Part shown: in pieces, positions 701-38,213 of the stretch
Layout of the letters: every line of letters starts with the position of its first letter
How positions within the stretch are numbered: the first letter of the stretch is position 1
Source: a virus
Lineage: Duplodnaviria > Caudoviricetes
DNA: 40,299 bases
IMG/VR virus record: IMGVR_UViG_3300037423_000838
Location: 1 to 40,299 of that record
Direction: 5' to 3' (one strand)
Notes under the pieces: generated by a model
What the model saw: only the letters and a program-made list of their open reading frames with translations
The model's database searches: none
Told to the model about the DNA's origin: nothing
Position numbers and translations under genes: made by a program

Positions 701-719
701 TATTTAATAACCCTTCAGT

Positions 720-1045
720 TGCAGAGATACTCAGCGCTAGACTGTTGCAGAGTTCCGAAGAGAGCTCCTCATTGTGCAGAGATAGCTGCTGTAGTACGCA
801 AGGATTGCAGAGATGGGAGCGTAGGTCAAGGTGCATAGATAATGCTTATAGAGGGAATATCTCAGTTGCACACTGGATTCTTGGAGAAGCGCAAAAGATG
901 CAATAATAGCCTTTGACGTGCTGAATCTTGAACGCATAGATAAGCAAGACTTGCAAGGGCCCTGAGTATTGAGTGGGCCGTACTAAGGAGGCCCACTCAG
1001 GGGCATACAAAGTTTGCAGTTTATAATTGATTCCAGTGCTGAGAT
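720..1045. repeat. Array of short direct repeats TGCAGAGAT with unique spacers
   Basis: Copies at 720 (exact), 746 (TGCAGAGTT), 775 (exact), 806 (exact), 832 (TGCATAGAT), 933 (CGCATAGAT), 1037 (TGCTGAGAT); weaker copies at 867, 890, 919. Confidence 0.75.
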
Positions 1046-1067
1046 AATTGTACTAATTTCTAGGGCT

Positions 1068-1089
1068 GCACACTATTGAATTGTCAAGA
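1068..1089 (-). promoter_or_regulatory. boxA/rrn-leader-like motif copy 1 (TCTTGACAATTCAATAGTGTGC)
   Basis: 21/22 identical to 2358..2379; about 60 nt downstream of a consensus promoter. Confidence 0.55.
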
Positions 1090-1151
1090 ATAACCTTATG
1101 CTGACGCTTTAATTGGCTACTTATTCACCAATAGCTCGACCGCATGCATCA

Positions 1152-1180
1152 ATTGTAGCACAACCGATGGTACACGTCAA
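1152..1180 (-). promoter_or_regulatory. Sigma70/HrdB-type early promoter
   Basis: TTGACG-17 bp-TACAAT with extended -10 (TGC TACAAT). Confidence 0.8.
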
Positions 1181-1263
1181 TGTATAATATTATAGACAGA
1201 CTAATGGAATAGCAACTCGACTGATGGAAGTTTATCCACTCGTTTTTCCAGCGAATTTCAGAC

Positions 1264-1297
1264 AAAAAGAAAAGCCCTAGCTTAATAGCTAGGGCTT
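1264..1297 (-). terminator. Intrinsic terminator
   Basis: 11-bp stem AAGCCCTAGCT/AGCTAGGGCTT, 4-nt loop, U-tract on - strand, just after the stop at 1302. Confidence 0.85.
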
Positions 1298-1301
1298 AGT
1301 C

Positions 1302-1469
1302 TTACTTCTTAAGATTGAGGATCAAACGCTTATTGTTCTTATCAATGAATCGACCACAACTACAGGCGCGTGATCCATCTTTGAAATGAACAATAGTACG
1401 GGTCTGTCCTTCTCGCTCACCACAGAAAAGAGAGTCTTCAATAACACGAATGTCTGAGAGTAGAATCAT
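1302..1469 (-). CDS. Small hypothetical protein, 55 aa (C...CxC)
   Basis: ATG at 1469 preceded by AAAGGA; ends at the terminator. Confidence 0.55.
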   Translation of the reverse strand: MILLSDIRVIEDSLFCGEREGQTRTIVHFKDGSRACSCGRFIDKNNKRLILNLKK

Positions 1470-1529
1470 TGTCTTTGTCCTTTGCTGTGTAAGTTTTGTT
1501 AACACAACAGTGTGCGCTCCTGTAGCTAA

Positions 1530-2303
1530 TTACTTAGTAACTCGGATAAAGTAGGACTTGTCCTTGAGCGAGTAGTTAAAGGTGGTCTGCTCAGGAAGAA
1601 CGTTCCAATCCTTAACATCACCGTTCTGCCCAAACCAAGCCTCGTGCAAGTCACTAGCACCAATAGTCTCGCCGGTTTCCTTCTTCAGCCACTGAGTCAG
1701 AACACTAAAGGTAGACTTACCATCCTTCTCGACCTTAGTGTAAGACTGGCCATTATCAGTGCTAACTGCAATCTCACTAACACGCGGCCGGGAAGATCCT
1801 TCGCCCTGCCCAGACTTAGCACCAGAAGCACTACGCTTAGCCTTAGGAAGCTCACCTACATAATCGTAGATGTTAAGCTCAGGGTGATTAGATCCGACCT
1901 CCATAGTAAACATGCTATCGAGAGTCTTCACGTTACTTACGAGGTTCTTGTACTCCTCTTCGGCAGCCTTGATTTCCTCATCAGAAGGAATAGCAAGAGT
2001 AGGCTTAACCTTAGCCTCGATCTCCTTTTGCCAATTGAGAATAGCCTCATTAGCCTTCTCAATACGCGCAAGAGCCTGCTTAACCTCAGGATCCTCAGAC
2101 TGCTTAATAGCCTCACTAAGCAACTCGCCAATGTTTCCGGCCGCATTAACCTTAGCGGCAACACCCTTAAGCTTATCGACCAAAACCTGAGCCTTGGTAA
2201 CAACCAGACTGACCATAGGCGCATCAGTAAAAGAGTCCAGCTCCGGAATAACCTTGCTCGGCTTAACCTCAGCCTCAGGCGCAACAACAGTTTCAGTAGA
2301 CAT
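1530..2303 (-). CDS. Early protein, 257 aa: coiled coil, basic G/S linker, globular C-terminal domain
   Basis: ATG at 2303 with AAGGGG RBS; strongly biased codons; no family recognised. Confidence 0.8.
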   Translation of the reverse strand: MSTETVVAPEAEVKPSKVIPELDSFTDAPMVSLVVTKAQVLVDKLKGVAAKVNAAGNIGELLSEAIKQSEDPEVKQALARIEKANEAILNWQKEIEAKVKPTLAIPSDEEIKAAEEEYKNLVSNVKTLDSMFTMEVGSNHPELNIYDYVGELPKAKRSASGAKSGQGEGSSRPRVSEIAVSTDNGQSYTKVEKDGKSTFSVLTQWLKKETGETIGASDLHEAWFGQNGDVKDWNVLPEQTTFNYSLKDKSYFIRVTK

Positions 2304-2357
2304 AACAATCCCCTTAATGGATAGATAAATGAAAGCGCGTTTGTTTGCTGAAGGAGC

Positions 2358-2379
2358 GCACACTATTGAATTGACAAGA
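2358..2379 (-). promoter_or_regulatory. boxA/rrn-leader-like motif copy 2 (TCTTGTCAATTCAATAGTGTGC)
   Basis: Direct repeat of 1068..1089; its 3' part is complementary to 1505..1521. Confidence 0.55.
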
Positions 2380-2441
2380 CCTGCCATGTGGTTAGGGATA
2401 GCTCAGGCTAGGCGCCCGACCCCTTCCCTCCCAACACCTCT

Positions 2442-2471
2442 ATTAGATCATGGCTCATGGGTGGTACACAA
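2442..2471 (-). promoter_or_regulatory. Candidate early promoter
   Basis: TTGTGT-18 bp-TCTAAT with TGn extension; same -35 hexamer as 35143..35171; similar distance to the boxA-like motif as in copy 1. Confidence 0.4.
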
Positions 2472-2636: not shown

Positions 2637-2882
2637 CTAGAATTGTCTTTGATGCCACCAACTTGGAAGGTGTCCAGATTTAATTAGTGTGTTCTCTAGA
2701 GTCTCTAACATGAATTGCTGGATAGTCAGTTGCTTTTCTTTAGCAGCCTCCTGTAGCCCCTGAATAATCCTTTCATCCTTTAGCGTCCATTCAAATTTAA
2801 TTCTAGCGGCTGTCGCTTCTTTTAACTTGACATTAGTAGTGTTATGTGTACCATTAGGGGTATGAAGACTATCCTTGTCCAT
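2637..2882 (-). CDS. Putative ribbon-helix-helix DNA-binding protein
   Basis: AGGAGG RBS; alternating strand RIKFEWTL then two helices (ERIIQGLQEAAKEK, TIQQFMLETLENTL). Confidence 0.55.
   Translation of the reverse strand: MDKDSLHTPNGTHNTTNVKLKEATAARIKFEWTLKDERIIQGLQEAAKEKQLTIQQFMLETLENTLIKSGHLPSWWHQRQF
2827..2854 (+). promoter_or_regulatory. Candidate promoter for a leaderless transcript starting at ATG 2862
   Basis: TTGACA-16 bp-TACCAT, ATG 7 nt downstream. Confidence 0.5.
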
Positions 2883-3359
2883 CCGTGGGCCTCCTATCGT
2901 CGGTCAGCTGGTTATACTCAGCTGCAAGTTGCACGCATTATGTGTGTTTCAAGACACTACTATATTCGATTAGAACAGGGACTATTTAACCTACCACCAC
3001 CTGGGGTGTGCGACCGCCTGGGGAAATTATTTAAGGTGGAGACTAAAGACATGCTGCAGAGTTACTTAGATTACCAAAAGAACACTAGATTAGCCTTCGG
3101 TAAAAATTACGAGAACTTCGACTTACTTTACAATTACAAGGGAGAAACGCACCCACTAGTTTTCTGGCGGGAACAACAGGACTTAAGTAGGATTGGATTA
3201 TGTAAGGGGTTATGCTTACACCAGGACTTAGTCAGAAATTACGAGAACAACAAGCAGAGGCACCCACCTCAGGAATTATATACTGCATGTGACTTGATTG
3301 GTTGGGATATCCTGGCCTTAACAGGCGCTGTGGAATCTTGGAGGGTTAGATGGCACTAA
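2862..3359 (+). CDS. Tandem XRE/Cro-type helix-turn-helix protein
   Basis: Two similar halves: HPWASYRRSAGYTQLQVARIMCVSRHYYIRLEQG and HPLVFWREQQDLSRIGLCKGLCLHQDLVRNYENN; start may alternatively be 2844. Confidence 0.75.
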   Translation: MKTILVHPWASYRRSAGYTQLQVARIMCVSRHYYIRLEQGLFNLPPPGVCDRLGKLFKVETKDMLQSYLDYQKNTRLAFGKNYENFDLLYNYKGETHPLVFWREQQDLSRIGLCKGLCLHQDLVRNYENNKQRHPPQELYTACDLIGWDILALTGAVESWRVRWH

Positions 3360-25590: not shown

Positions 25591-25847
25591 ACGCCCCAGT
25601 AGAACGTAAGGTTTATGCAGCTACTCTTGGAGCAGGAGCAGGTACCACAGTCTCTCAGTTTGGTTTATGGGCAGTAGATCAAATTTGGTGGCCAGACCCT
25701 GAAGTAGATATTCCGATTCCTGTAGCTGGGTTTGTCACACTAGTAATTACTGTTGGATTGACTTTTATTACTGGTTGGCTAGCTAAGCATGGCGATAATG
25801 AAATCGTGTACGAGGAGGACCCTGCCAATCCGCATGGTACCCTCTAA
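25587..25847 (+). CDS. Probable holin (two TM helices)
   Basis: MNAPVERKVYAAT start, two hydrophobic helices, GWLAKH and acidic tail; AGGAG RBS. Confidence 0.7.
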   Translation: MNAPVERKVYAATLGAGAGTTVSQFGLWAVDQIWWPDPEVDIPIPVAGFVTLVITVGLTFITGWLAKHGDNEIVYEEDPANPHGTL

Positions 25848-25849
25848 AT

Positions 25850-25905
25850 AGCTAAACCCCCTGTTAGAAAGCCTATTGACAAGGCCCTAGCAGGGGGTTT
25901 AGTTT
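25850..25905 (+). terminator. Terminator hairpin that also contains the whiB promoter
   Basis: 16-bp stem 25852-25867/25887-25902 (one G-U); TTGACA at 25876-25881 and TAGTTT at 25900-25905, 18-bp spacing. Confidence 0.7.
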
Positions 25906-25911
25906 GTCCTC

Positions 25912-26322
25912 ATGACAACACTGTTGGCCATAGGGATATGGCGGAAGTGGGCACAGTGCTTAGGACAAGAAGCTTTATTTCAACAAAATCCCAAAAAAGC
26001 TAAAAAAGAGATTTGCAGTAATTGCCCAGTTATAGAGCAATGTTTAAAGTACGCCTTAATTTATGATGAACACGGAATTTGGGGAGGAACTACGAAAGAA
26101 TCCCGAGAGCTAATAATTCGGGATCAACCTGAGATTCGGACGATGTTGATACAGGAGGCGAGGGCTCTTGGGATTTATGAGGTTCGGAAATCTGCTGATG
26201 ATTACTATCAGGCGATGAGGAAGACTCAGGCTCGTTACTCGAAAGAGAAAGTATTTGATCCTGTGGCGTCTCAGTGGGATTGGAACGATCCTGATACTTG
26301 GCTAGTTCAAGCAGAACTTTAA
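25912..26322 (+). CDS. whiB: WhiB family Fe-S transcription factor
   Basis: W..WAQC, AKKEICSNCPVIEQCLKYAL, GIWGGTT..R: four Cys plus the G[IV]WGG turn. Confidence 0.93.
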   Translation: MTTLLAIGIWRKWAQCLGQEALFQQNPKKAKKEICSNCPVIEQCLKYALIYDEHGIWGGTTKESRELIIRDQPEIRTMLIQEARALGIYEVRKSADDYYQAMRKTQARYSKEKVFDPVASQWDWNDPDTWLVQAEL

Positions 26323-26671
26323 GTGCTTTTGGAGGAATAGAGTACTCAGTAGGAATCTGAGATCTTCTCCACATATCGTCAGCATGCATAGGATTCCAAT
26401 AGATTCCCACTTTCTCAAGGGAAGCTATTCTGCATTCAGTTGAGCAGTTGCTGACGAATTTATATGTCGTGAGGAAAGTTTCACGACAATTAGCACAAGT
26501 TTTTCTTTTGAAAGCATCAGGTGTTTCTAAGAATAAACCAATAGCTTCAGCTTCTCGGGCGTGGCCACTAGCAAGGTGGCCACGTCTTTTTTCTTGTACT
26601 TCTTCAACAGTGATACCAAGAATTTCAGCTGTTGCCTGATCCAATTTTAGCTGTTTGGTCGATTCTTTCAA
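26090..26671 (-). CDS. Hypothetical zinc-binding protein (CxxC...CxxxC) with S/P-rich tail
   Basis: CANC and CSTEC motifs; TTG start uncertain; tail overlaps whiB antisense. Confidence 0.6.
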   Translation of the reverse strand: MKESTKQLKLDQATAEILGITVEEVQEKRRGHLASGHAREAEAIGLFLETPDAFKRKTCANCRETFLTTYKFVSNCSTECRIASLEKVGIYWNPMHADDMWRRSQIPTEYSIPPKALKVLLELAKYQDRSNPTETPQDQILSLSSNEPESSSSPDSNHQQISEPHKSQEPSPPVSTSSESQVDPELLALGILS

Positions 26672-27137
26672 CGTAGTAACACCTCATCTCATTTCTCTTC
26701 TCAATGAGATTTTTAATTAGCCAAGTATCATACAAAGATTGACCCGCGAAGTGATGCAAAGATTCGTGTGAGATCTCCCAATAAGTATGCCATTTCCCAA
26801 AGGCGAGATATTGATAGATGTATTTGTTCTTTTCTCGATTATAGAACATTTGCCATTTATCAGTACAGCCTAGCAGATTATACCAGTATCTTTGCTCAAT
26901 AGGCTCCTGAAGACTTTTCTCATTAGATAACCATACTTGAACTATTCTCCCATCCCAAAACCAAATTCTTTGTCGGGAGTAAGTATGGACGTCTAATCTT
27001 ATATCATAGTCATAAGGATCATATTCATAAAGAGGTCTTCTATTTTCATTTAGAACATTATAATGAGGGTAAGTATCTGGCCAGTCTACAAAGGTGTCAT
27101 CATATTTCTCAGGTCCACCTATGACAAGTCGTCTCAA
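26625..27137 (-). CDS. Hypothetical protein, aromatic-rich
   Basis: TTGA overlap with the resolvase stop; AGGTG RBS. Confidence 0.6.
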   Translation of the reverse strand: MRRLVIGGPEKYDDTFVDWPDTYPHYNVLNENRRPLYEYDPYDYDIRLDVHTYSRQRIWFWDGRIVQVWLSNEKSLQEPIEQRYWYNLLGCTDKWQMFYNREKNKYIYQYLAFGKWHTYWEISHESLHHFAGQSLYDTWLIKNLIEKRNEMRCYYVERIDQTAKIGSGNS

Positions 27138-27592
27138 AGTTTCACCTGCTTAATTTTGTTTTGAATTAGCCAGTACTCACCGTGGTTGTAGGCATCAATA
27201 ACATGTGTTCTGTTATGAGCCATTCCCTTAGTGAATTTTCCAGTGAGTCTCTCAGCAATAGATTTAATGCCAGAAGGTTGTTGATACATTGTAGCTCCCC
27301 AGAGATGAGCATATGTCTCAATTTTGCCAATAGCTACAGAGGCTGGCATTCTGCTACCAATTTGGGCTTTAGCTTTGTTTGGAAACAAGATAAAATCTTC
27401 ATAGATGACTACTTTAATACTAGTGGGAAATCCTGAAAGTAGCTCATCTAATTCTTGATGTGACCAGACAGTTCCCATATCCAACCAGATACCATCTTGA
27501 TCCCAAGTTGCCCACCCTGTAGCTTTTCCTGGGTCTAGAGCTAAATAATAGGGTAATCGCTCTGTAGCTACTTCTTGAGTCGACTCGGCCAT
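27134..27592 (-). CDS. RuvC-like Holliday junction resolvase
   Basis: YLALDPGKATGWA, VIYEDF, HVIDA RNase H-fold acidic motifs. Confidence 0.8.
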   Translation of the reverse strand: MAESTQEVATERLPYYLALDPGKATGWATWDQDGIWLDMGTVWSHQELDELLSGFPTSIKVVIYEDFILFPNKAKAQIGSRMPASVAIGKIETYAHLWGATMYQQPSGIKSIAERLTGKFTKGMAHNRTHVIDAYNHGEYWLIQNKIKQVKL

Positions 27593-27792
27593 TTTAGTAT
27601 ATTCTCTACAATCTTTAGATTACGTTCCAACAGCATTTGCTTAGCTGAGGATTCTCCTTCGTACTTACAGATAGAACACCATTCCGCAAAAATCTCATGA
27701 ATACAAGTTGTTTCTGCCATCTTTGCCTCTATCTCTTTTCTTGGAGGGAGGTCGGTAAGGAACTCAATAATTTGCTCTGATACGTCCCCCAT
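27568..27792 (-). CDS. Small hypothetical protein (CxH...CxxC)
   Basis: TAATG coupling to the polymerase stop. Confidence 0.6.
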   Translation of the reverse strand: MGDVSEQIIEFLTDLPPRKEIEAKMAETTCIHEIFAEWCSICKYEGESSAKQMLLERNLKIVENILKWPSRLKK

Positions 27793-29516
27793 TAGGCTGC
27801 CTTAATCTCGTGAATATCTACTTTGAAAGGAATGCCAAATTCTGCAGGAGGTGAGGTTTCCATGATTCTCTTAATTTCAGGTAGGTGCTTATCCTCAGTT
27901 CCTTCTGGGATTTCAAACCAGACTGAGTCATGTACCTGTAGCTCCATTAAGCATTCAGGATCTAATTCTTTATCAAGTTGAATCATTGCTCGTTTAACAA
28001 TTTCGGCGGCACCTCCCTGCATGACAGCATTTAGAGCCTTGTGAGCCTCCGCTCTGGGGTTCTCAAAGTGCCTCCTGCGGTTGGTCCAGTAACGTACAAA
28101 TCCCTGCTCTTTAGCAAGACGCATAGCCATTTCATTAAGTTCTGCAATCTTACTAAATCTTGTGAAATAGCTATTGTATAGATTCTGTGCTTTCCATAAA
28201 GGAATGCCCAGCATCATAGCTACCTTTGCAGGCTTAGCCCCGTACCCTGTAGCGTAGTTAAGTTGCTTAACGTCATATCGAGGGTATCCAAGCTCTTTTG
28301 CCATTTCGTCGAATAGATCACGGGTATCATCATTGAATACTTCGACAAGAAGGGGTTCTTTAGAATAGGCTGCTTGAATCCGCATTTCCAATTGTGAGTA
28401 GTCGGCTTCCCACAATCTATAACCAGGCCGCGCAAGGAATCCCGCTTTAACACGTTTATTCCAAGGTTTCTCTGTAACTCTCGGGATTTGCTGTAGGTTC
28501 GGATCGCGGCAGCTAAGCCTGCCAGTTTTTGTTCCATGCTGCATGAAATTAGGTCTAAGTCGCCCATCAGGACTGACGAGTCTGAGGTAAGCTTTCCAAT
28601 AAGAGCTAACTGCTTTCTGATATCCACGATACTCCAAAATATTACTAGCTACAGGGGAGTCCATTGTGGCTAGGATCTCCTCATATAGCTCCATATAGTT
28701 CTTAGCAAATGAGAGATTGCCTGAGGCAGTTCTTTGACCTGTAAAGATAGGCAGTTGTAAATCTTCAATCAGAAGTTTTTCAAGGTCCTTACGAGAACCT
28801 AAGTTATAACCAATCTCATCCAATAACTCAGTCATACGGAACTCACCTAAGAGAATCTGCTGCTGAGCTAAATCAAGATCTACTAAGATGCCTTGCTTCT
28901 CAATTTTATTAAGGAGATACAGGAAGTCTAACTCTACCTTCCAACGTTCAGCGTTATCAGGTTCTTCCTCCATAAATTTAGGCCAATAATAATCGTGCAT
29001 AGCCAGATGTAGAATAGCATCCTGAGCACCATAATCAGCCATAGCAAAAGAGGGAATACCACCCCAACCGAAAGCCTTCTTGATAGTTTCAAAGTCGTCA
29101 TCTCTCATCTTTCCTGGAATGCCTAATACATTTCTAGCTTGGAAATCAAGGCCAAATGATAATTGATCTTCTCTTACATTATGTGCAGCTAACATAGAAC
29201 AGCGAGAGTCAGGAGGAGCTTTAATTCCTAGCGAATTGAGAGCTGGGATGTCATGTTTAAGATTATGACAAGTAATGGGTTTGGACTCAATGAGCTCTTT
29301 AAGCTTATCCCTATAATCCCATCCCAAGTTACCGTTATCTGGATGTCTGAAGGGAAAGTAGTAAGAATAGCCGTTAACACCATCATACTTGAATGCAATG
29401 GAAGCTCCCATAGTGAAGCCTCTACCATCACGTAAATCTTCTCCATTAGATTCCGTATCTACGCCTAGGACTGGTGCAAATTCATGAGCTAATTTTAGGA
29501 AGAGTTGAAACTCCAT
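27792..29516 (-). CDS. polA: Family A DNA polymerase with 3'-5' exonuclease
   Basis: ExoI VDTE, ExoII HNLKHD, ExoIII YGAQD; TGRLSCRDPNLQQIP; motifs A DYSQLEMR, B KQLNYATGYG, C QVHDS; start placed at ATG 29516. Confidence 0.95.
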   Translation of the reverse strand: MEFQLFLKLAHEFAPVLGVDTESNGEDLRDGRGFTMGASIAFKYDGVNGYSYYFPFRHPDNGNLGWDYRDKLKELIESKPITCHNLKHDIPALNSLGIKAPPDSRCSMLAAHNVREDQLSFGLDFQARNVLGIPGKMRDDDFETIKKAFGWGGIPSFAMADYGAQDAILHLAMHDYYWPKFMEEEPDNAERWKVELDFLYLLNKIEKQGILVDLDLAQQQILLGEFRMTELLDEIGYNLGSRKDLEKLLIEDLQLPIFTGQRTASGNLSFAKNYMELYEEILATMDSPVASNILEYRGYQKAVSSYWKAYLRLVSPDGRLRPNFMQHGTKTGRLSCRDPNLQQIPRVTEKPWNKRVKAGFLARPGYRLWEADYSQLEMRIQAAYSKEPLLVEVFNDDTRDLFDEMAKELGYPRYDVKQLNYATGYGAKPAKVAMMLGIPLWKAQNLYNSYFTRFSKIAELNEMAMRLAKEQGFVRYWTNRRRHFENPRAEAHKALNAVMQGGAAEIVKRAMIQLDKELDPECLMELQVHDSVWFEIPEGTEDKHLPEIKRIMETSPPAEFGIPFKVDIHEIKAA

Positions 29517-29520
29517 ATTG

Positions 29521-31299
29521 TCACATGCCGAAGATTCCGTCCCTCCCGGGAGTAGGCTCTTCTCGTTTTGCCTTATCACGTATTGCCTCCTCTCTACTTT
29601 CTTCAGCTTGCTTTAATAAGCCAGTTGGAGAGACTTCCTCAAACATAAGTCCCTCAACACGAATAATAGACATCTCATCAGGCTCTTTAGCAAGACGTAC
29701 TTTCAGCCAGGAAAGTTCAATTTCATTAGTCCGAAGATTGCGCCACACACCAAGAACAGAGGTAGCTTGCGCAGTAATAAAGTTTGATCCGTAAACGTCA
29801 GAAAGGCCATTTGGCTTCTTGTTATTGACCTGTGCTTTCCTGTTGTGATGAATGAATATAATACTGCAGTCAAATTCGTTTCGCATTTGGCTGGCAACGT
29901 CCATAACACGCTTAGCAGTACGTTCTTCAGATAATTCATCCATCGTAGTCGTGGAGAGGGAGTCAAAGACAACACACTCAGGCTTCTTAAGTCGAAGTAC
30001 GTTTTCAATCTTTTTTCTATCAGTCGCACTCTCAAACATAATACCTTGACCGATAGGGACAAGAGAGAAGTTTTGTTCAAGTAAAGCTTTTTGCTCGTCT
30101 GTAAGAATCGCATCCATTTGTCCCATGATGTATTTGAGATCTGCAGGACCCATCTCCATACTAAAGAAGCATACTGGCCTAGGAGTTTCAATCTTCCAAT
30201 CTAGGAAATTCTTACCCATAGCAATATGCATAAGGGCCTGCATTACAATCTGAGTTTTACCAGCGCCAGGAGCCCCCGCAACAATCATGATACCCTGTCG
30301 CTGAAGTTTTCCTTCAATCATCCAATCTACATGGATTTCAAGATCTAATAGTTGCTTCCAAGAGTAGATAGGAAGTTCTTCAACGACGATTTCGGGATCA
30401 ATGGGGTACTTATGTCTAGCTCTATTAATGAGATCGAGAAGTCTTCTAGTCTGGTCTGTTCGTCCTTTGAATTTCTTCCATCGCTCATCTGCATTTGCAA
30501 GGATTGCGTAGGCTTCTTCATCTGACATCTTCATTTCTGCGCAAAGATAAGCAAGTCTCATCAATGCACTAGATCTGGATCCTGTAGAAATCTCAGGCTT
30601 ACGGAAAAATTCCCAATCCTCAGGTTGCCATGGATACTTAGCAACTACAGCTAGAGGCTCAGGAACATCTCCTAGTACTATGTCTTCTTTTGTAAGTTGC
30701 TTAGGGATCTCTAGATTATTAAAGAACTCATAGCTATAGGTACTAGCTGATCTAGTGAGAATCCTAACCATCTTGTCACGTTTGTGATTCCTAGTTCCCG
30801 GAGGTCTAAGAATCTGATTAGCATCCCAACCACTTGTATCAGCTTGAAAAAGATAAGCTACAGCTCTATTGATCTCTTCAAATCTATTAACATCTGTTTC
30901 AAAATGTTCTAGACGCCAGTATAGGTGCTCATGTCCCTCATTTGACGAACGTACCCGCATAGTTGGAAGAGGAATCTTATCTCCTAAAATACCATCCTGA
31001 GGAGCATTACCATCAAACTCAACCCATACTATCTGGGAACCTAATACATTACTCTTATCAGGATCTTTAACTCGAAACAATGCAGGTCCGAAATAGCACT
31101 CACTACTAGCTGTATTCTCTAAAACGTGCTCGATCAGAAGAGACTTTTCTTCTGGCCACTGAAAGAAGTGCTTTTCCCATTGATCAGTCCCTGCTAGCTT
31201 AAGGGGCGCATAGGCATATCCTGTATTGTCTCCCCACATGAAGTTAAAGAACTCTTCTAGATCTGCTTCTGGTCTTAGAGACAGAACATCGCTCGTCAA
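29521..31299 (-). CDS. Primase-helicase (RepB'/AEP-like primase, PriCT-like domain, RecA-like AAA_25 helicase)
   Basis: WVEFD, HEHLYW, LRPPGTRN; GSRSSALMRLA; Walker A GAPGAGKT, VVFDSL, IHHNRK; TTG start at 31299 after GGGAGGT. Confidence 0.88.
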   Translation of the reverse strand: MTSDVLSLRPEADLEEFFNFMWGDNTGYAYAPLKLAGTDQWEKHFFQWPEEKSLLIEHVLENTASSECYFGPALFRVKDPDKSNVLGSQIVWVEFDGNAPQDGILGDKIPLPTMRVRSSNEGHEHLYWRLEHFETDVNRFEEINRAVAYLFQADTSGWDANQILRPPGTRNHKRDKMVRILTRSASTYSYEFFNNLEIPKQLTKEDIVLGDVPEPLAVVAKYPWQPEDWEFFRKPEISTGSRSSALMRLAYLCAEMKMSDEEAYAILANADERWKKFKGRTDQTRRLLDLINRARHKYPIDPEIVVEELPIYSWKQLLDLEIHVDWMIEGKLQRQGIMIVAGAPGAGKTQIVMQALMHIAMGKNFLDWKIETPRPVCFFSMEMGPADLKYIMGQMDAILTDEQKALLEQNFSLVPIGQGIMFESATDRKKIENVLRLKKPECVVFDSLSTTTMDELSEERTAKRVMDVASQMRNEFDCSIIFIHHNRKAQVNNKKPNGLSDVYGSNFITAQATSVLGVWRNLRTNEIELSWLKVRLAKEPDEMSIIRVEGLMFEEVSPTGLLKQAEESREEAIRDKAKREEPTPGRDGIFGM

Positions 31300-31322
31300 A
31301 TTTACACCTCCCTTCAACGACA

Positions 31323-31359
31323 AATAGGTTGGCTCCCCTGGTGAAGGAGCCAACCTATT
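31323..31359 (-). terminator. Terminator-like hairpin after the amidase
   Basis: Perfect 14-bp stem AATAGGTTGGCTCC/GGAGCCAACCTATT. Confidence 0.75.
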
Positions 31360-31374
31360 ATGACTTAGCGCAAC

Positions 31375-32058
31375 TTACTTCTTGTAAACATTGGGGTTAG
31401 CAGCCTCGTACTCAGCACGCTTACCAATACTAGCGTAATAGTTCCAGTTTGCACGGTAAAGAACTTCCTGTACCTCTACGGGTGATCCGTCAGGATCCTT
31501 AATGTTAGGAACGTGATCCTTAAAGTCCATGTCCTTTAAATCCTCTCCCAGAGAGCTTGGGCGAGGAGCACCAATCCTAACCCAAGCATAGAGTTCGTTG
31601 CCAGGACAATCAGTCTCATTTGTATCTCTATGACCGAGAATCTTGTTTCCTGCATGGCCCTTGGCGCGAAGATATTCAATTGCATCTCGGGCAGCTTCTT
31701 TAAGATCGTCCGGAGCATTACCAGACTTGCTACCCCACATACATTGAACAGCAAAATACTTGTAATTGACGTCAGAGTCGCCATTTGCGGAACTCCTACG
31801 ATCGTACCCACGTCCCTCAAAGACATACCTGTGAGGACAAGCAAGGTAATTATAGGCAATGTCCGACCAATTATGCGTACCATGCATATGATCTTCCTGC
31901 ATAGCCCTAACTTTGTCATCACAAGTACTATGTGGCCAAGGCCATTCCCAACCTCCACCTTCCCAGTGGATAACTACTCCCTCAGGTGCAATAGAAGTAG
32001 TACCAGCTTCTCTAGGTTGTGCTCCCCATTGTGCTCTTGTAATTAGCTGAATAGTCAT
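31375..32058 (-). CDS. N-acetylmuramoyl-L-alanine amidase (Amidase_2/PGRP-like endolysin)
   Basis: ITRAQWGA, VVIHW, DIAYNY, FEGRG, GHRD, CPG; AAGGAGGT RBS. Confidence 0.92.
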   Translation of the reverse strand: MTIQLITRAQWGAQPREAGTTSIAPEGVVIHWEGGGWEWPWPHSTCDDKVRAMQEDHMHGTHNWSDIAYNYLACPHRYVFEGRGYDRRSSANGDSDVNYKYFAVQCMWGSKSGNAPDDLKEAARDAIEYLRAKGHAGNKILGHRDTNETDCPGNELYAWVRIGAPRPSSLGEDLKDMDFKDHVPNIKDPDGSPVEVQEVLYRANWNYYASIGKRAEYEAANPNVYKK

Positions 32059-32075
32059 TTATACACCTCCTTTCG

Positions 32076-32141
32076 TAGCGTAGCTGGGAATCGAACCCAG
32101 GTTCCTTAAAAATAAGTGACTGACCCTCAGCCTACTACGCA
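32076..32141 (-). ncRNA. tRNA-like element with truncated anticodon arm
   Basis: Acceptor GCGTAG/CTACGC, canonical T arm CTGGG-TTCGATT-CCCAG, D-like hairpin GGCTGA/TCAGTC, anticodon arm only CTTA-TTTT-TAAG. Confidence 0.6.
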
Positions 32142-32218
32142 ACCCCCGGCAGGACTATGTGTTTCTACCTTTCCGAGTGGCTTTATTTGATTATCATAGG
32201 AGCCTTAGAACCTATGCG

Positions 32219-32291
32219 TAGCGATGGTGGGATTCGAACCCACACTGTACGGAGTTTAAGTCCGCTCTCTCTGCCATTGGAGTACATCGCC
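32219..32291 (-). tRNA. tRNA-Leu (anticodon UAA), short variable loop, CCA not encoded
   Basis: Acceptor GGCGATG/CATCGCT, discriminator A, anticodon arm GCGGA-CTTAAAC-TCCGT, T arm GTGGG-TTCGAAT-CCCAC. Confidence 0.9.
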
Positions 32292-32559
32292 GCACCTCTT
32301 ATATTATCCTCAGTGGGCAGGGTCACTGAGTGCACGTATAATATAAGAGGGCCTGCAACCCAGCTGCGCCTGTAAGCTGGGGAGTCTAATTAATGTGGGC
32401 TGCTGTAGTTTGTACCCAGCTTTTCTACCACTTAGCTTCTCTGCTGGCTTAGCACCTTTACCACGATCCCTAAGGAGTCCAGTAATAAGGGCTTTCCTTG
32501 TATACTCTTGAAGCACCCACTAGTTTAAAACGGTGGTTCTTTTGTATCGCCTACTCTAT

Positions 32560-33012
32560 TCACTCGAAAGGGTTACCACCACTGCCCGTAGAAGCATCCG
32601 CTACAGCAATACTGCGGACGTTCTCGCTACCATTCTTGTTGTAAATAGTAACATCGTACTGCTGGTTCATGTTCATAAGATCTTCAGCCTGCAGATCATT
32701 AATACGCTCAGCAGGAACACCCATGTCCATCATGGTCTTCTTAAGCTGAGAAACTGCAGTAGCTGCCTTACCTCGGAATTCATCATCCGAACTCTTAAGG
32801 TCTGCAGCAGTAGGGATCCAATACCAGGGAGTGATATTGCGTCCCTTCTTTTCTCCCTTAACAATCTTAAATTCCAGCCGAAGGCCCTGCTTATCTCCCT
32901 TAGCAGTAGGCTTAACAGAAAGCCCCACAAGATCACAGAGATAAGTACCGTCCGGCTTAAGCCACGGGTTGTCCTCTGCCGACTCTACGTCAAGTTCACC
33001 AAAAAGACTCAT
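32560..33012 (-). CDS. Putative single-stranded DNA-binding protein (DUF669-like)
   Basis: KPDGTY...LRLEFKIVKGEKKGR OB-like pattern; flexible tail ending NPFE; next to a Sak4-like ATPase. Confidence 0.7.
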   Translation of the reverse strand: MSLFGELDVESAEDNPWLKPDGTYLCDLVGLSVKPTAKGDKQGLRLEFKIVKGEKKGRNITPWYWIPTAADLKSSDDEFRGKAATAVSQLKKTMMDMGVPAERINDLQAEDLMNMNQQYDVTIYNKNGSENVRSIAVADASTGSGGNPFE

Positions 33013-33013
33013 T

Positions 33014-33898
33014 TTAAATTTCCAATCCTGTAGCTACTTCAATTTCTTCTGGGTCGTTTTCTAGTTCCATTGGAGCATCTTTTTCTGGCAGTAGTTCTCC
33101 TCCTGTAGCTTGCCATTCATCCACAATTTTACGAAGACTCCAAAGATTACTTACGTTAATGGTAAGAGGTAAGCCACCGATACGAGTCTTAGCGATAGTT
33201 GTCTTCGTCGGATGCACTTGGAGTTCGCGTTCGTAGATAACGTTACCAGCGCTGTCAAGATCCTTTGCAGTAGCACTCATATAACCAATCATACTGGTCA
33301 TACCGTTAATAGATGCAAGAATCTTAGGTGAGAAGTCAGGGACTGTCTTGATTCCCATCTCAATGCCAGCCTTTTTAAGTTGAACGTCTCGGGCATGAGC
33401 CGTAACTATGATGTTGACTGGACACATGAAGAGATTCAGGAAAGCCATACGAACTCTATGTGCGTTCTGTTTGTAGTTAGCCCACATATCGTTATCAAAG
33501 TCGAATCTATCGATGCCACCCTTGGCTTCAATAGCCTTCTTAGTAACAACATCTAGATCTAGATTAGCGATATTAGATCCAGTGTCAATCAGAACTGTGT
33601 CATGCTTAGTGATTCCTGGAATGCCTTCTTTATAAGCTTGTGCAATTGCTTCAATCTGAGAGACACCCTGATAAGGCATACGAGTCATTCGATTGTTGGC
33701 AACTAGTTCTGGGTGATTAAAGAGGGACTGCCAACCTTCAGGATCTGCTTCTACATGCAAGACCTTATGTCCAAAAGTTCCTGCAAGAGCTGTCTTACCT
33801 ACACCAGGATCTCCAAAGATAAGAGACTTGAAATACTTAGTACTCTCCTCCATTGGAAACATGCCGTCTAACAGAGCATTTAGAATTTTAGCATCCAT
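33014..33898 (-). CDS. AAA_24/Sak4-like ATPase (recombination)
   Basis: LIFGDPGVGKT, TVLIDT, NIIVTAH, AKTR. Confidence 0.85.
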   Translation of the reverse strand: MDAKILNALLDGMFPMEESTKYFKSLIFGDPGVGKTALAGTFGHKVLHVEADPEGWQSLFNHPELVANNRMTRMPYQGVSQIEAIAQAYKEGIPGITKHDTVLIDTGSNIANLDLDVVTKKAIEAKGGIDRFDFDNDMWANYKQNAHRVRMAFLNLFMCPVNIIVTAHARDVQLKKAGIEMGIKTVPDFSPKILASINGMTSMIGYMSATAKDLDSAGNVIYERELQVHPTKTTIAKTRIGGLPLTINVSNLWSLRKIVDEWQATGGELLPEKDAPMELENDPEEIEVATGLEI

Positions 33899-34830
33899 TA
33901 GGCTTCCTCATTGTATCCATAAGTTCTAGCTTGGTAGTTGCTTCTAATCAAAGGTCTGTAATCAATTCCTTCTTCCATCATCTCACAAGGTGCTTTAAAA
34001 GGACAGTTACGACATACCATCCTATTCATTACAGGTAGAGCTTCCATCTCCTGTAGCTCGATTGGTAAAGAACGACGATCCATAATACGCTCAGAAGCAA
34101 TTAGCTGTTGCTTGAAAGCATTTCTGATTCGTTCTGGTTTAACACCTGTAGGTGAGTTTTGGAATAGATCCTCATCAGGCTTCTGTTTAATTAGGTGAGC
34201 TGGGAATCTAGTACGGAACTGATTTAGATAACCATCTTCGACAGGGATTCCAGCATTACGCAAGACTCCAATATACTTAGGTGTCTGTGGATTCAACTTT
34301 AGATCATCGAAAGAAAAGAAGTCGTAAGTGAACTTGTGATCTACCAGGTAAATATAGTTTTGATTGCGACCAGAAAGAGCACGCACCAGCAGATCCAAGC
34401 GCATACCATACCAAAAACTTTCATTGACTGGTAGGTAAAAATCTTTTTCGACTTCAAGGATCTCAGTAGTTTCCGCAATTGAATCAACTTGTACATAACG
34501 AGCAAATAATGATTGTAGGACAGCTATGGTTTCAATTTCGTCGTTAGTATCGGCTAGTATCATGAATTGCGTTAGTACTTTAGCACCTGCCTGATAACCG
34601 TCTTTCTTAGTGCCACCTTCCTTAATAGCAGTGTAATAAGCAGCAAGAACCTCATGCCCAGTGATCCCAATACTAAGAGCTCTACTTTTACGCTTAGGTT
34701 CTACGTTAAGAATGAAGCCAAAGAAATGCTTACGTTCACAGTCAAGAAATGAACTAACTTCTGAGTTGCTTACAATTCTTGCACCTTCTGGAAGTTTTCT
34801 CTGGTATGTCTCTAACTCAAAGCCTGTCAT
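33898..34830 (-). CDS. Cas4/AddB-like PD-(D/E)XK exonuclease with Fe-S cysteines
   Basis: SNSE...CERKH, EVEK, GMRLDLL, LVDHK, Q...Y, CRNCPFKAPC. Confidence 0.85.
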   Translation of the reverse strand: MTGFELETYQRKLPEGARIVSNSEVSSFLDCERKHFFGFILNVEPKRKSRALSIGITGHEVLAAYYTAIKEGGTKKDGYQAGAKVLTQFMILADTNDEIETIAVLQSLFARYVQVDSIAETTEILEVEKDFYLPVNESFWYGMRLDLLVRALSGRNQNYIYLVDHKFTYDFFSFDDLKLNPQTPKYIGVLRNAGIPVEDGYLNQFRTRFPAHLIKQKPDEDLFQNSPTGVKPERIRNAFKQQLIASERIMDRRSLPIELQEMEALPVMNRMVCRNCPFKAPCEMMEEGIDYRPLIRSNYQARTYGYNEEA

Positions 34831-35120
34831 AGTTTCTCCTCACAGGGAGGACAGACAGCGCCCAATCCCATGTTAGCAAATTTAACTGTCTTCTGCTTTT
34901 CAGGTACGAAAGGTTGTTCGCATTCTTCACATTCTACAACACAGGCTAATACTGAAGGTTTATCACAACCAGGTTTGTCTCCATATCTGCTTCTGTAAAC
35001 TCTGTGAACCCAATATCCTGTAGCTTCGTCGTATCCATAACCGTCTTTTTGATCTTTTCCTATACACATGCAAATTTTTGAAATAACATCTGGGGGTAAA
35101 TGGCTCCAATTAATTGACAT
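34827..35120 (-). CDS. Cys-rich zinc-ribbon protein
   Basis: CMC, CEEC, CPPC; GGGAGG RBS. Confidence 0.65.
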   Translation of the reverse strand: MSINWSHLPPDVISKICMCIGKDQKDGYGYDEATGYWVHRVYRSRYGDKPGCDKPSVLACVVECEECEQPFVPEKQKTVKFANMGLGAVCPPCEEKL

Positions 35121-35142
35121 CTGCCCTCCCTTCTATGAGTCA

Positions 35143-35171
35143 AGTATACCATAGGTTAACTATCCACACAA
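35143..35171 (-). promoter_or_regulatory. Promoter for the recombination/replication genes
   Basis: TTGTGT-17 bp-TATACT with TGG extension. Confidence 0.65.
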
Positions 35172-35459
35172 GCCATAAAGGTTAATTCTTGAGTTCATCT
35201 CAAAATCATCTAGCTTGTCTTCATATGGACGCTCAGAGATAGGATAAACTTCTACTTCTTCAGGAATATCTCCTTCACAAGCCTTACCTGTAATAATCAT
35301 AGGACCATCAATCAAATCCTCTAAGCTACAGTTGCGCTCTTTAAGATCTGTAATGTCCATTTCAACCATAGCAGCATACTTACGATCATCATTAGGAAGA
35401 TCATCATAATTTTGTTCATTGAGAGGATACCTAATAATAATTGTCAATTCACCATACAT
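35160..35459 (-). CDS. Acidic hypothetical protein (paralog of 35459..35644)
   Basis: TGATG coupling; GAGG RBS. Confidence 0.65.
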   Translation of the reverse strand: MYGELTIIIRYPLNEQNYDDLPNDDRKYAAMVEMDITDLKERNCSLEDLIDGPMIITGKACEGDIPEEVEVYPISERPYEDKLDDFEMNSRINLYGLCG

Positions 35460-35644
35460 CAGATTGCCTCATCCTCATAGATTCTGCCAGTAACAGTATC
35501 CATCAACTCAAAAAAGGATTCAGGATCCTCTTTACAAGCTTCAATCTCAACTTTAAGAGCTTCCTCTTCAGTCATGTCATCGGCATAACTATTAGGCTCG
35601 AAAGGAAAAGAAAGCTTAATGACTAATTCCATCATCTTCGTCAT
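35459..35644 (-). CDS. Small acidic hypothetical protein
   Basis: TAATG coupling to the HNH gene. Confidence 0.65.
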   Translation of the reverse strand: MTKMMELVIKLSFPFEPNSYADDMTEEEALKVEIEACKEDPESFFELMDTVTGRIYEDEAI

Positions 35645-36162
35645 TAATCCCTACCAACTTTCTGTGGCTTATTACGTGAAAAGTACAGCTCGGACTCTAG
35701 CCATTCCTCATCCGTTGCCAAAGTTTTCTCATCGTGTCTGTGAGGGATAACTCCGGCTTCATATTCAGGATCATTTTTGGCATGCCACCTGTTGTGACAG
35801 GTATGACAGATACGGTGTACGTTACCTTGGTCGTTATTGAGTGTATTTTTGTCGGGACCATGATGACGCGCTTGTTGGGTACCGTTCCTACAACCGACAA
35901 TAGGGTACTTACCACCTCCTGCAGATTTAAGTCCTTTCCATTCACAGGATGCCTCTCTATCAAGAGGATAAAGGGCGGCAGCCCGCTTTCTTCCAGTAGA
36001 TTGTTGATCCTTAAGAGTTGCGTTTCTTCGTCCTCTTCTCCAATCCCCATACTCTTCCTCAGTTTCTTGTAATAACTCAGGGAGTATATTTCCGGAGCTA
36101 CAGCAGCATGGATCTTCTTCGCATTCTCCATGAAAACCTGCCCCACAACTAACGCAAGTCAC
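35644..36162 (-). CDS. HNH endonuclease family protein, Cys-rich
   Basis: RHHG..NTLNNDQGNVHRICHTCHNRWH. Confidence 0.75.
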   Translation of the reverse strand: MTCVSCGAGFHGECEEDPCCCSSGNILPELLQETEEEYGDWRRGRRNATLKDQQSTGRKRAAALYPLDREASCEWKGLKSAGGGKYPIVGCRNGTQQARHHGPDKNTLNNDQGNVHRICHTCHNRWHAKNDPEYEAGVIPHRHDEKTLATDEEWLESELYFSRNKPQKVGRD

Positions 36163-36607
36163 TAGAAGGTTCTATCTTAGTGCCTCCTAGAAATTTAAGA
36201 AGACGCTCGGCTACAATCTCAGGAGTATGTCCATCATATTCTGCTGATTGAAGTCTATCCTCGATATCAAATAAATCCCAATACTCCATTTTGTAATGAT
36301 TAGAGATCTGACCCGTAGGGAGCTGAGCTACAACAATAAACCAACCACCATCGAAGCAGAGTTCTCCATCACTATGACGCATACTCTTGTGCACATCATA
36401 GAGATTTAGCTGCCACCACTCATTAAATAAGGCAGCATTATAAAGCATACGATAGGTATAAAGTTCTCTATAAGAGTGATGCCCATCAGAGACTTCATCC
36501 AAATCAAAATACACATGAAGGTCTTTAGGTTCGATAGGTCGCCAATTAGTAGAACCAGTTCTTACAAAAAGTTCATGAGACACTTCGACTTCTCCTTCTG
36601 TAGCCAC
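36149..36607 (-). CDS. Conserved phage protein (WDGH-like)
   Basis: DGHHSYRELY, KSMRHSDG, GWFIV..LPTGQISNHY..WDLF, YDGHT. Confidence 0.7.
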   Translation of the reverse strand: MATEGEVEVSHELFVRTGSTNWRPIEPKDLHVYFDLDEVSDGHHSYRELYTYRMLYNAALFNEWWQLNLYDVHKSMRHSDGELCFDGGWFIVVAQLPTGQISNHYKMEYWDLFDIEDRLQSAEYDGHTPEIVAERLLKFLGGTKIEPSSDLR

Positions 36608-36725
36608 GAGTTGCTTGCTTAAGACGTAGAGAAATTGTATAGACGCCTGTAGGGCTATTCTCTGAAATTAAAGCATCAGCTACACGGCCACCTAATTCAA
36701 TTTGATCCAGCTTGCGCCTATTCAT
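36573..36725 (-). CDS. Small hypothetical protein, 50 aa (not in ORF track)
   Basis: TAATG coupling, AGGA upstream; MNRRKLDQIELGGRVADAL... Confidence 0.45.
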   Translation of the reverse strand: MNRRKLDQIELGGRVADALISENSPTGVYTISLRLKQATRGYRRRSRSVS

Positions 36726-36871
36726 TAAAGCATCCTATCAATAATATCTTGAATATCTTCTCCATCTTTCACAATAGAAATAATTACGGGGAGATTTTCA
36801 TCATCAACCTCACCTGTTATTGTAATGAGTTCATTTTCATCATTACGATACTCAATAATTACAGTTCTCAT
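36725..36871 (-). CDS. Small acidic protein, 48 aa (not in ORF track)
   Basis: TAATG overlaps at both ends; MRTVIIEYRNDENELITITGEV... Confidence 0.6.
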   Translation of the reverse strand: MRTVIIEYRNDENELITITGEVDDENLPVIISIVKDGEDIQDIIDRML

Positions 36872-37125
36872 TACGTCCCTGCCATGTGATAGTCAGTAAG
36901 TCTATTATCTCCGAACTCGGGATCAACCCATACAACATATGAGTCTCCACCATGACCATGAATTGCTTCCATATCTTCTAATGTATTCCAGACATGAGTT
37001 ACTGGCCTTTTACCTCTCCAACGAACTGCTAAAGAACCATCTGGAAATTGAATACCATCAGCTACAGGGCCTGTGCCACTAACACCTGATGGATCTACAT
37101 CTCTATACCAGATAAATCTTCGCAT
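36871..37125 (-). CDS. Conserved actinophage-type hypothetical protein (HGH motif)
   Basis: RDVDPSGVSGTG.VADGIQFPDG..AVRW...IHGHGG. Confidence 0.75.
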   Translation of the reverse strand: MRRFIWYRDVDPSGVSGTGPVADGIQFPDGSLAVRWRGKRPVTHVWNTLEDMEAIHGHGGDSYVVWVDPEFGDNRLTDYHMAGT

Positions 37126-37139
37126 TGTTCCCCAGCTTT

Positions 37140-37313
37140 CTATCTAGGACAGTTATGGGTGTTAGCTTTTTCAACTAAATCAGAAAGGCTATCCCCATTT
37201 ACACTTAAATTCTCACCCACTGTACAGCCACACATTCTATGAATTAAAAGCACGTCCTCTGGAGATACTACATAGACATTAAATTCTGATAAATCAGCCA
37301 TTGGTCCTGCCAT
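37140..37313 (-). CDS. Small hypothetical protein, 57 aa (HxxC...HxC; not in ORF track)
   Basis: TAATG coupling; AAGGA RBS. Confidence 0.55.
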   Translation of the reverse strand: MAGPMADLSEFNVYVVSPEDVLLIHRMCGCTVGENLSVNGDSLSDLVEKANTHNCPR

Positions 37314-37600: not shown

Positions 37601-37620
37601 AATCTAATTCTCCTTATAAA

Positions 37621-37790
37621 CGCTTGTTGGGGCTAATACAAGGGATGAGAGGTCTGACATTACGCCAGACATGATGCCTTGTATAGCCCCAACTCTTTTG
37701 CGATTACTCGCAGCTTATGAAATTTTAGGTGAAGGCTTAACCGACCTTCATGAGAGAGATTGTTAAGAACAAGCGAAGCTCTCACGGCTT
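37621..37790 (-). ncRNA. Structured intergenic RNA (long hairpin, GNRA hairpin, boxA-like site)
   Basis: Stem 37626-37658/37664-37693 with internal loop; TGCGA-GTAA-TCGCA; TGTTCTTAACAAT at 37771-37759. Confidence 0.5.
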
Positions 37791-37801
37791 GTGTTATTTA
37801 C

Positions 37802-38182: not shown

Positions 38183-38213
38183 GATGTGTGCCTTTCAAAG
38201 GGTTGTTGGGTAC

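What the first reader, a model, noticed from the sequence alone, without database searches (positions are those of the whole stretch)
1068..2379. Early transcripts carry a motif mimicking the actinobacterial rRNA-operon leader (boxA plus processing stem)
Seen: TCTTG(A/T)CAATTCAATAGTGTGC occurs about 60 nt after each of two leftward promoters, preceded by a possible small hairpin; a third, shorter site TGTTCTTAACAAT lies at 37771-37759. From memory, actinobacterial rrn leaders read approximately TTGTTTGAGAACTCAATAGTGTG and E. coli rrn boxA is TGCTCTTTAACA, the NusB/NusE loading site. Inference: the phage borrows host rRNA antitermination (hairpin then boxA, the rrn order rather than lambda nut order) to read long early operons; no N-like gene was recognised.
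Basis: partly seen in the sequence, partly recalled or inferred. Interest (0 to 1): 0.75.

Follow-up and report, generated by a model that had tools for sequence, protein, structure and literature searches.

The report
Phage mRNA framed like 16S rRNA
An uncultured soil phage of actinobacteria brackets one early protein gene with close copies of both strands of the long helix that its hosts place around 16S ribosomal RNA, and repeats the first strand alone ahead of a long early leader, which likely lets it borrow the host's rRNA processing and elongation machinery for its own messenger RNAs.

Summary
The two 22-nt copies are real. They match the actinobacterial rrn leader at 17 and 18 of 20 bases; the best of 200 shuffles reached 16. 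The match covers the 3' half of boxA and the boxC/NusA region. boxA's invariant G2 is missing, so NusB/E loading is doubtful.

Copy 1 pairs with 1493-1521, just after the stop of a 257-aa gene. That partner matches the host's spacer strand at 13 of 14 bases, in the register of the 16S leader-trailer helix. Four other phage loci (three with unrelated genes) show the same one-gene frame, with compensatory changes.

Copy 2 has no partner in the held sequence. It precedes a 387-nt untranslated leader, like fuller boxA copies in 10 cultured actinophages. The third site is unsupported.

Best reading: RNase III-type processing that likely stabilises one mRNA, plus likely NusA-type docking; untested at the bench. 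No paper on this came up in 10 searches. The scan has noted similar rrn mimics on other DNA.

The parts
2442..2471 (-). Promoter P1 (candidate): -35 TTGTGT at 2471-2466, -10 uncertain (TCTAAT at 2447-2442)
   Evidence: Same -35 word upstream of gene A homologues in L032, L033, L036, L037; not listed by the promoter scan; inferred
2386..2437 (-). Leader hairpin before copy 1 (boxB position)
   Evidence: -26.8 kcal/mol, z -2.49, 3 of 200 shuffles as good
2352..2380 (-). Motif copy 1 (2358-2379) and its extension: 5' strand of a 16S-type leader-trailer helix
   Evidence: 17 of 20 match to host core; pair probabilities 0.71-1.0 at 26 of 29 positions in the full transcript
1530..2303 (-). Gene A, 257 aa, enclosed by the helix; coiled-coil N-terminus homologous to that of Jasmine gp1 (Lsr2-like); C-terminal domain has no clear fold match
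   Evidence: 71 other homologues; hhalign 83.8% to Jasmine gp1 and 93.9% to a DS1 253-aa gene; start at 2303 chosen because homologues begin there and L036 has in-frame stops upstream
1493..1521 (-). 3' (trailer) strand of the helix, starting 8 nt after the gene A stop; 13 of 14 match to the host 16S-23S spacer strand
1302..1469 (-). Gene B, 55 aa, between the trailer strand and the terminator; absent from L036
1262..1297 (-). Intrinsic terminator closing the P1 unit (11-bp stem plus T run)
1152..1180 (-). Promoter P2, TTGACG-17-TACAAT with TG extension
   Evidence: conserved in L036
1098..1145 (-). Leader hairpin before copy 2 (boxB position)
   Evidence: z -1.19 alone; same outer fold with a different tip in L036, z -2.09
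1068..1089 (-). Motif copy 2: 3' half of boxA plus boxC/NusA region; no partner found
   Evidence: 18 of 20 match; best downstream helix reached by 53 of 100 shuffles; 16 of 20 in L036; no listed difference in the run X4 relative
701..1067 (-). Untranslated leader, C-rich, with four CTCTGCA repeats (starting at 812, 781, 752, 726)
   Evidence: C/G 1.48, reached by 3.8% of 799 minus-strand windows; alignable with L036
59..700 (-). Gene C, 213 aa, first gene after the P2 leader; no Pfam or PHROG match
37759..37771 (-).

Best explanation
The phage carries two copies of the back half of the actinobacterial rRNA-leader signal: the first is predicted to pair with a matching trailer strand right after gene A, framing that mRNA like pre-16S rRNA so that host RNase III likely cuts it out as an end-paired, stabilised message, and the second, unpaired copy likely docks NusA-type elongation factors ahead of a long untranslated leader. 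SHOWN in sequence: identity to the host leader; identity of the trailer to the host spacer strand; the same pairing register; compensatory change across five phage stems; a terminator closing the unit. INFERRED steps: (1) NusA binds the boxC region as it leaves the polymerase and holds it; (2) when the trailer emerges after the gene A stop, the helix closes, as in the rrnTAC looping model; (3) RNase III cuts the outer helix, leaving about 15 inner pairs that hide both ends from exonucleases and free gene B's mRNA; (4) at P2 no trailer follows, so the factors stay on and protect the C-rich 387-nt leader and the downstream early genes from premature termination.
For: Host identity and position upstream of 16S. 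Trailer 13 of 14 to the host spacer strand; 1 of 200 shuffles reached this. Helix score 20.2 against a shuffle maximum of 14.5. Gene A is the only one of 55 window ORFs with such a flank helix, 22.3 against 13.6 for the next. Register identical to five host helices, including the U.G pair at motif position 13. Same frame around the homologous gene in L036 and around three unrelated genes in L032, L192 and L186, each above 100 of 100 shuffles, with the trailer close behind the stop. Positions 20-27 differ among the five stems while pairing is kept. In positions 6-25, G.U pairs outnumber A.C mismatches 8 to 1, as expected for RNA of this strand (counted). Staggered cuts in the strands flanking 16S are reported in the actinobacterium P. 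acnes (PMC3848588, passages). The RNase III site overlaps boxC (PMC10250234, passages). The boxC region is a specific NusA site in mycobacteria, with AUA critical (PMC2724277, passages), and both copies keep AUA. In 10 of 10 cultured actinophages examined the motif is in sense orientation, 137-497 nt ahead of the next gene. Viral record G407 has, like the window, one paired and one unpaired copy.
Against: No RNA data of any kind. The frame is absent around gene A in the more distant relatives L032, L033, L034 and L037, and DS1 has the motif there without a significant partner, so it is not needed for gene A expression in general. Copy 2 has decayed to 16 of 20 in L036 and is absent in L032 and L033. 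About 5 kb of the genome is missing, so a distant partner for copy 2 is not excluded. The window stem has a U.U mismatch at motif position 9, where the hosts pair, and five mismatches in 34 positions. In E. coli the helix matters independently of RNase III (PMC10250234), so cleavage is not implied. An RNase III cut could also destabilise the message.
Confidence: 0.55

Rival explanations
1. Full rRNA-type antitermination: both copies load NusB/NusE and the rrn complex, and read-through of early operons is the main job; the trailer only unloads the complex before the terminator.
For: Hairpin-then-motif order about 60 nt after promoters. Other actinophages keep boxA G2 in 31 of 34 sites. Jasmine has a full boxA at the copy-2 position. 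Copy 1 fits a one-U-short boxA register with G2, like lambda boxA as quoted in PMC2724277. The leader after copy 2 is C-rich.
Against: In the rrn register G2 is missing in both window copies and both L036 copies, and boxA is described as necessary and sufficient for rrnTAC (PMC10250234). The copy-1 unit is short and terminated. The terminator scan lists only three minus-strand candidates in 25800-40299.
Confidence: 0.2
2. The helix is a down-regulating or timing device: RNase III cleavage, or sequestration of the 5' leader, limits gene A expression to a short early burst.
For: RNase III cuts in 5' leaders can open mRNA to decay, as for pnp (PMC3848588, passages). boxA near a ribosome-binding site represses suhB (PMC5725501, passages), and copy 1 ends about 50 nt before the gene A start.
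Against: The long, G+C-rich inner helix would remain after a cut and pair both ends. The ribosome-binding site lies outside the high-probability helix. A local hairpin would suffice for decay, so a gene-spanning stem is not needed.
Confidence: 0.12
3. Decoy: abundant early RNAs bearing the host's NusA/RNase III signal titrate these factors and depress host rRNA synthesis.
For: Strong early promoters; near-identity to the host signal; many unrelated actinophages keep it before long non-coding leaders.
Against: Only one or two copies per genome. Fixed promoter-proximal spacing and gene-specific trailers point to action in cis.
Confidence: 0.07
4. Double-stranded DNA operator for a phage repressor, with the trailer as an inverted third site.
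For: The trailer read on the + strand matches the core at 16 of 20. An HTH protein gene lies nearby at 2844-3359. Orientation bias alone does not exclude DNA sites (stoperators; recalled).
Against: The same word occurs in unrelated phages and in host rrn leaders. Inner stems change sequence freely while staying complementary, with G.U bias. A separate word, GTGTACCA, lies in all three promoters of this region and is the better operator candidate.
Confidence: 0.04

Closest known systems
16S rRNA leader-trailer helix (hLT) with boxC, an RNase III substrate (Warner et al. 2023, PMC10250234; staggered cuts in P. acnes, PMC3848588)
   Same: Helix of about 29-34 positions between transcript flanks, boxC region in the 5' strand, same sequence and register as actinobacterial hosts, similar predicted stability (-43.5 against -38 to -43 kcal/mol)
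   Different: Encloses a protein-coding gene, not rRNA; the outer boxA-paired part is shifted and less regular; cleavage untested
Actinobacterial rrn nut-like site, boxB-boxA-boxC, with the mycobacterial NusA site (as summarised in PMC2724277 and PMC12781872; primary papers not read)
   Same: Promoter-proximal, hairpin first, 3' half of boxA and the AUA-containing boxC region kept
   Different: 5' half of boxA, including G2, is lost in this lineage; lies in phage mRNA leaders
Lambda nutL/nutR with N protein
   Same: Phage early leader using host Nus-factor signals
   Different: Order is hairpin then boxA; sequence copies the host rrn leader; no antiterminator family among 57 ORFs in PHROGs
Phage T7 early RNase III sites such as R1.1 (PMC8708148, passages)
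   Same: Phage mRNA maturation and protection by host RNase III
   Different: T7 sites are local hairpins between genes; here the two strands lie about 830 nt apart around a gene and copy the rRNA site
boxA-regulated mRNAs such as suhB (PMC5725501, passages)
   Same: rrn-type signal in an mRNA leader
   Different: There Nus factors repress, in gammaproteobacteria, and no trailer helix is involved

Membership tests
16S leader-trailer helix | Long (25-40 bp) helix between 5' and 3' flanks | tested here: met
   29 of 34 positions pair; in the MFE fold and at high probability
16S leader-trailer helix | Conserved boxC region in the 5' strand, in host register | tested here: met
16S leader-trailer helix | Covariation between the strands | tested here: met
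   Five phage stems, positions 20-27 differ with pairing kept; only L036 frames a homologue of gene A
16S leader-trailer helix | Encloses 16S rRNA | tested here: not met
   Encloses a 257-aa ORF; Rfam finds only two tRNA matches in the window. It works like an hLT but is not one
16S leader-trailer helix | Cut by RNase III | not testable with these tools
   Needs RNA end mapping or in vitro cleavage
rrn antitermination site (boxB-boxA-boxC) | Promoter-proximal, preceded by a hairpin | tested here: met
   the copy-2 hairpin is weak alone and P1 is inferred
rrn antitermination site (boxB-boxA-boxC) | Complete boxA with G2 | tested here: not met
   G2 in 79 of 79 host sites (20 distinct sequences), absent in both copies in rrn register; copy 1 fits only with a one-base gap
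rrn antitermination site (boxB-boxA-boxC) | boxC/NusA region with AUA | tested here: met
   Both copies; criterion from PMC2724277
rrn antitermination site (boxB-boxA-boxC) | NusB-NusE binding and read-through of Rho terminators | not testable with these tools
   Bench assay needed
Lambda nut/N system | boxA upstream of boxB | tested here: not met
   The hairpin precedes the motif
Lambda nut/N system | Phage-encoded N-type protein | tested here: inconclusive
   No such PHROG match, but N proteins are short and divergent and about 5 kb of the genome is missing
T7-type RNase III hairpin | Local intergenic hairpin | tested here: not met
   Strands lie about 830 nt apart
Repressor operator / stoperator array | Many phage-specific DNA copies across the genome (recalled definition) | tested here: not met
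   Two direct copies and one inverted copy; the word is shared with hosts

The most novel reading that the evidence does not exclude
Actinophages broadly hijack the host rRNA-leader signal, and several lineages have independently turned it into an mRNA packaging device. A trailer placed after one chosen gene makes the host treat that message as pre-16S rRNA: looped out, excised and end-sealed into an unusually stable RNA. The same trailer unloads the Nus complex, so one signal gives gene-limited processing where a trailer follows and operon-wide antitermination where none does.
Probability: 0.3. Interest if true: 0.85.

Novelty: new variant of a known kind. Interest (0 to 1): 0.64.

Why it matters
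How actinophages transcribe long early regions without an N-type protein is unexplained (own knowledge). The motif sits ahead of the early genes of cultured phages of Mycobacterium smegmatis, Streptomyces, Gordonia and Arthrobacter, so host-type antitermination or processing can be tested at once in laboratory strains. The gene-framing form would be a natural design for stabilising one mRNA, with use in actinobacterial expression systems. Natural copies that keep boxC but lose boxA, or keep the trailer, separate the functions of boxA, boxC and the helix; the role of boxC is stated to be unclear (PMC10250234).

Tried and rejected
Third site: rejected as chance-level or unrelated. No homologue of the gene before it was found in three related records, so conservation could not be tested.

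Motif as a promoter: its TTGACA/TTGTCA has no -10 at 16-18 nt.

Longer 285-aa start of gene A across the motif: rejected.

Partner for copy 2: none above shuffles in the 1051 nt held; best on the whole minus strand 13.3.

Rfam: nothing at the locus.

Nucleotide searches of cultured phages with the region or the window's own motif: no match. tblastn with gene A: none. Single-protein locus scans for genes A and C: none.

Viral pattern scans with window-type words gave mostly chance hits. New paired cases: 1 of 31 loci (L027), 2 of 13 (both the L032 site) and 0 of 7. Shocker has no good copy.

Sequencing runs: no RNA holder listed. The run X4 contig covering gene A gave no aligned piece over either strand, so it cannot tell whether the frame is present.

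Fold searches of gene A and its C-terminal domain: no clear match in solved structures, best Z 5.5 and 4.4. The Atlas gave only unnamed clusters below 0.9.

Literature: 10 searches found no paper on boxA, NusA sites or leader-trailer helices in actinophages. Most subscription papers are not held, so this is not proof of absence. The NusA-RNA structure paper is not held. No supplements were read.

Full report
The window is most of a podovirus-like phage genome of actinobacteria. Its capsid protein is 44-49% identical to those of Arthrobacter phages Jasmine and Adat, Microbacterium phage Shocker and Cellulosimicrobium phage DS1, and it has a WhiB gene. The record is 40,299 bases against 45-47 kb for these relatives, and both ends cut genes, so about 5 kb of the early region is likely missing. 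The host is not identified.

Observation. The 22-nt motif occurs exactly twice, at 2379-2358 and 1089-1068 on the minus strand, and never in 100 shuffles. Each copy lies about 60 nt after a promoter and just after a hairpin. P2 is a consensus promoter; P1 is inferred from relatives. The third site carries only a boxA-like 10-mer, matched equally well twice inside genes on the antisense strand, and is not accepted.

Likeness to the host. A pattern scan of bacterial genomes returned 120 loci from the 2 of 64 parts scanned, nearly all Actinomycetota. In 24 of the 30 cases where the 16S end was held, a strict partner word follows in the spacer. A phylum-wide sample found the signal in 100 of 401 genomes (four unpublished genomes enter only this tally). 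It included rrn leaders with the TTGACAAC variant. Against the 20-base host core the window copies score 18 and 17; the best site in 200 shuffles scored 16. Against the first 12 bases, the boxA, the window has nothing above chance. In the six bases before the core, which were outside every search pattern, G2 and T4 are invariant in 79 of 79 host sites (20 distinct sequences). G2 is kept in 31 of 34 viral sites; two loci were left out, one coding repeat and one host-like contig end. Both window copies lack G2 in that register, although copy 1 fits if one base is gapped. G2 substitutions weaken NusB-NusE binding (PMC3177189, passages). The retained part is the boxC region, a specific NusA site in mycobacteria with AUA critical (PMC2724277, passages; primary papers not read).

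Copy 1 is complementary to 1493-1529, directly after the stop of gene A. The core pairs have probabilities near 1 in the full transcript. The helix beats all 100 shuffles and is unique among 55 window ORFs. The trailer matches the host spacer strand at 13 of 14 bases and pairs in the same register as five host 16S helices. Relative L036 (gene A 58% identical) has the same frame with a different inner stem and 24 contiguous pairs, running straight into a terminator. Three further viral loci frame unrelated single genes the same way: a 458-aa gene with weak FAD-oxidoreductase hits (L032), a 104-aa gene (L192) and a 263-aa gene (L186). Positions 20-27 differ among the five stems while pairing holds, and G.U pairs outnumber A.C mismatches 8 to 1 in positions 6-25 (counted). 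This argues for RNA, not DNA.

How widespread. A host-type pattern hit 39 viral loci. Of 34 distinct sites with enough downstream DNA, 7 had a helix above all shuffles and 2 of these frame one gene; the rest are unpaired. BLAST with the motif found many cultured phages of Streptomyces, Mycobacterium, Gordonia and Arthrobacter, mostly intergenic, beside within-gene chance hits in coliphages. I opened ten with a copy: Lika, Adzzy, Bongo, FlowerPower, Gilson, Bantam, Rings and Phlei, picked from intergenic rows, plus the relatives Jasmine and DS1. Orientation was not selected, and all ten are in sense, 137-497 nt before the next gene; none has a significant partner within 2.5 kb. Jasmine's copy is at the copy-2 position. 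DS1's is at the copy-1 position, before its gene A homologue. Record G407 has one paired and one unpaired copy, like the window. Against generality within the family, L032, L033, L034 and L037 lack the frame around gene A, and Shocker has no good copy.

Mechanism. In E. coli, boxC is proposed to be held at the polymerase until the trailer emerges, and the RNase III site overlaps boxC, though the helix also matters without RNase III (PMC10250234, passages). RNase III processing there is aided by NusA and NusB (PMC8708148, passages). Staggered cuts flank 16S in an actinobacterium (PMC3848588, passages). I therefore read copy 1 as a processing frame, likely yielding an end-paired, stable gene A message. 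Gene A resembles the N-terminal part of Jasmine's Lsr2-like gp1, so it may be a DNA-binding protein needed early in bulk; that is inference. The unit ends at a terminator at 1297-1272, which rules out a long-operon role for copy 1. Copy 2 precedes a C-rich 387-nt untranslated leader and likely serves as a NusA-type docking site. Whether a full antitermination complex forms without G2 is open. All binding, cleavage and read-through steps are untested.

Comparison and novelty. It works like the rrn leader and the 16S leader-trailer helix but is a member of neither: it encloses no rRNA and lacks a complete boxA. It differs from lambda nut sites in order and from T7 RNase III hairpins in spanning a gene. 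Ten paper searches found nothing on this in actinophages (listed under Tried and rejected); PMC12781872, PMC5725501 and PMC12360218 were also read as passages only. Earlier unchecked notes of this scan describe similar mimics in other genomes; none is on this genome or sequence. They are not independent support, and I took from them the term leader-trailer helix and one paper. Verdict: a real, conserved element; a new variant of a known kind; interest 0.64.

Noticed in passing
window 37615-37715 (-): Very stable hairpin region (z -6.34) in the gap before the gene at 37600, with an 18-bp interrupted stem; could be a T7-type RNase III site or a small RNA. A candidate promoter, TAGACA-17-TAAGCT, lies near 38242-38214.
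   Followed up: partly
window 1168-1175 (-), 2462-2469 (-), 2846-2853 (+): GTGTACCA lies inside all three promoters of the divergent control region (1 of 100 shuffles reach 3), and related words occur in relatives and DS1; candidate operator or activator site.
   Followed up: partly
window 720-840 (-): Four CTCTGCA repeats plus a variant in the P2 leader; all 9 genome copies of this word are on the minus strand. Similar TGCA repeats occur in L036 and L033; possible origin iterons, or protein or Rho sites.
   Followed up: partly
window 945-1000 (-): Hairpins in the P2 leader whose sequence is nearly identical in L036; one resembles a weak terminator.
   Followed up: no
window 32076-32141 and 32218-32291 (-): tRNA-Leu(TAA) and a second, shorter tRNA-like gene found by Rfam but not ARAGORN.
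   Followed up: no
window 1530-2303 (-): Gene A family (71 other homologues) joins a coiled coil related to Jasmine's Lsr2-like gp1 to an invariant RPR motif and a confidently modelled C-terminal domain with no clear fold match.
   Followed up: partly
L257 (G407:C1:49751-52765); L166 3000-3660: Unpaired or weakly paired motif copies head about 1.1 kb (L257) and 0.4-0.6 kb (L166) of apparently non-coding, structured-looking sequence; candidate large phage ncRNAs.
   Followed up: no
L032 1684-3060 (-): A 458-aa FAD-oxidoreductase-like gene inserted in the opposite orientation in a related phage, with its own promoter, motif, trailer and terminator: the frame looks like a portable cassette.
   Followed up: partly
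G051, G364, G368, G400 and others: Besides the multi-copy rrn word, some large actinobacterial genomes have single variant copies; these may be prophage or mRNA leaders under Nus control.
   Followed up: no
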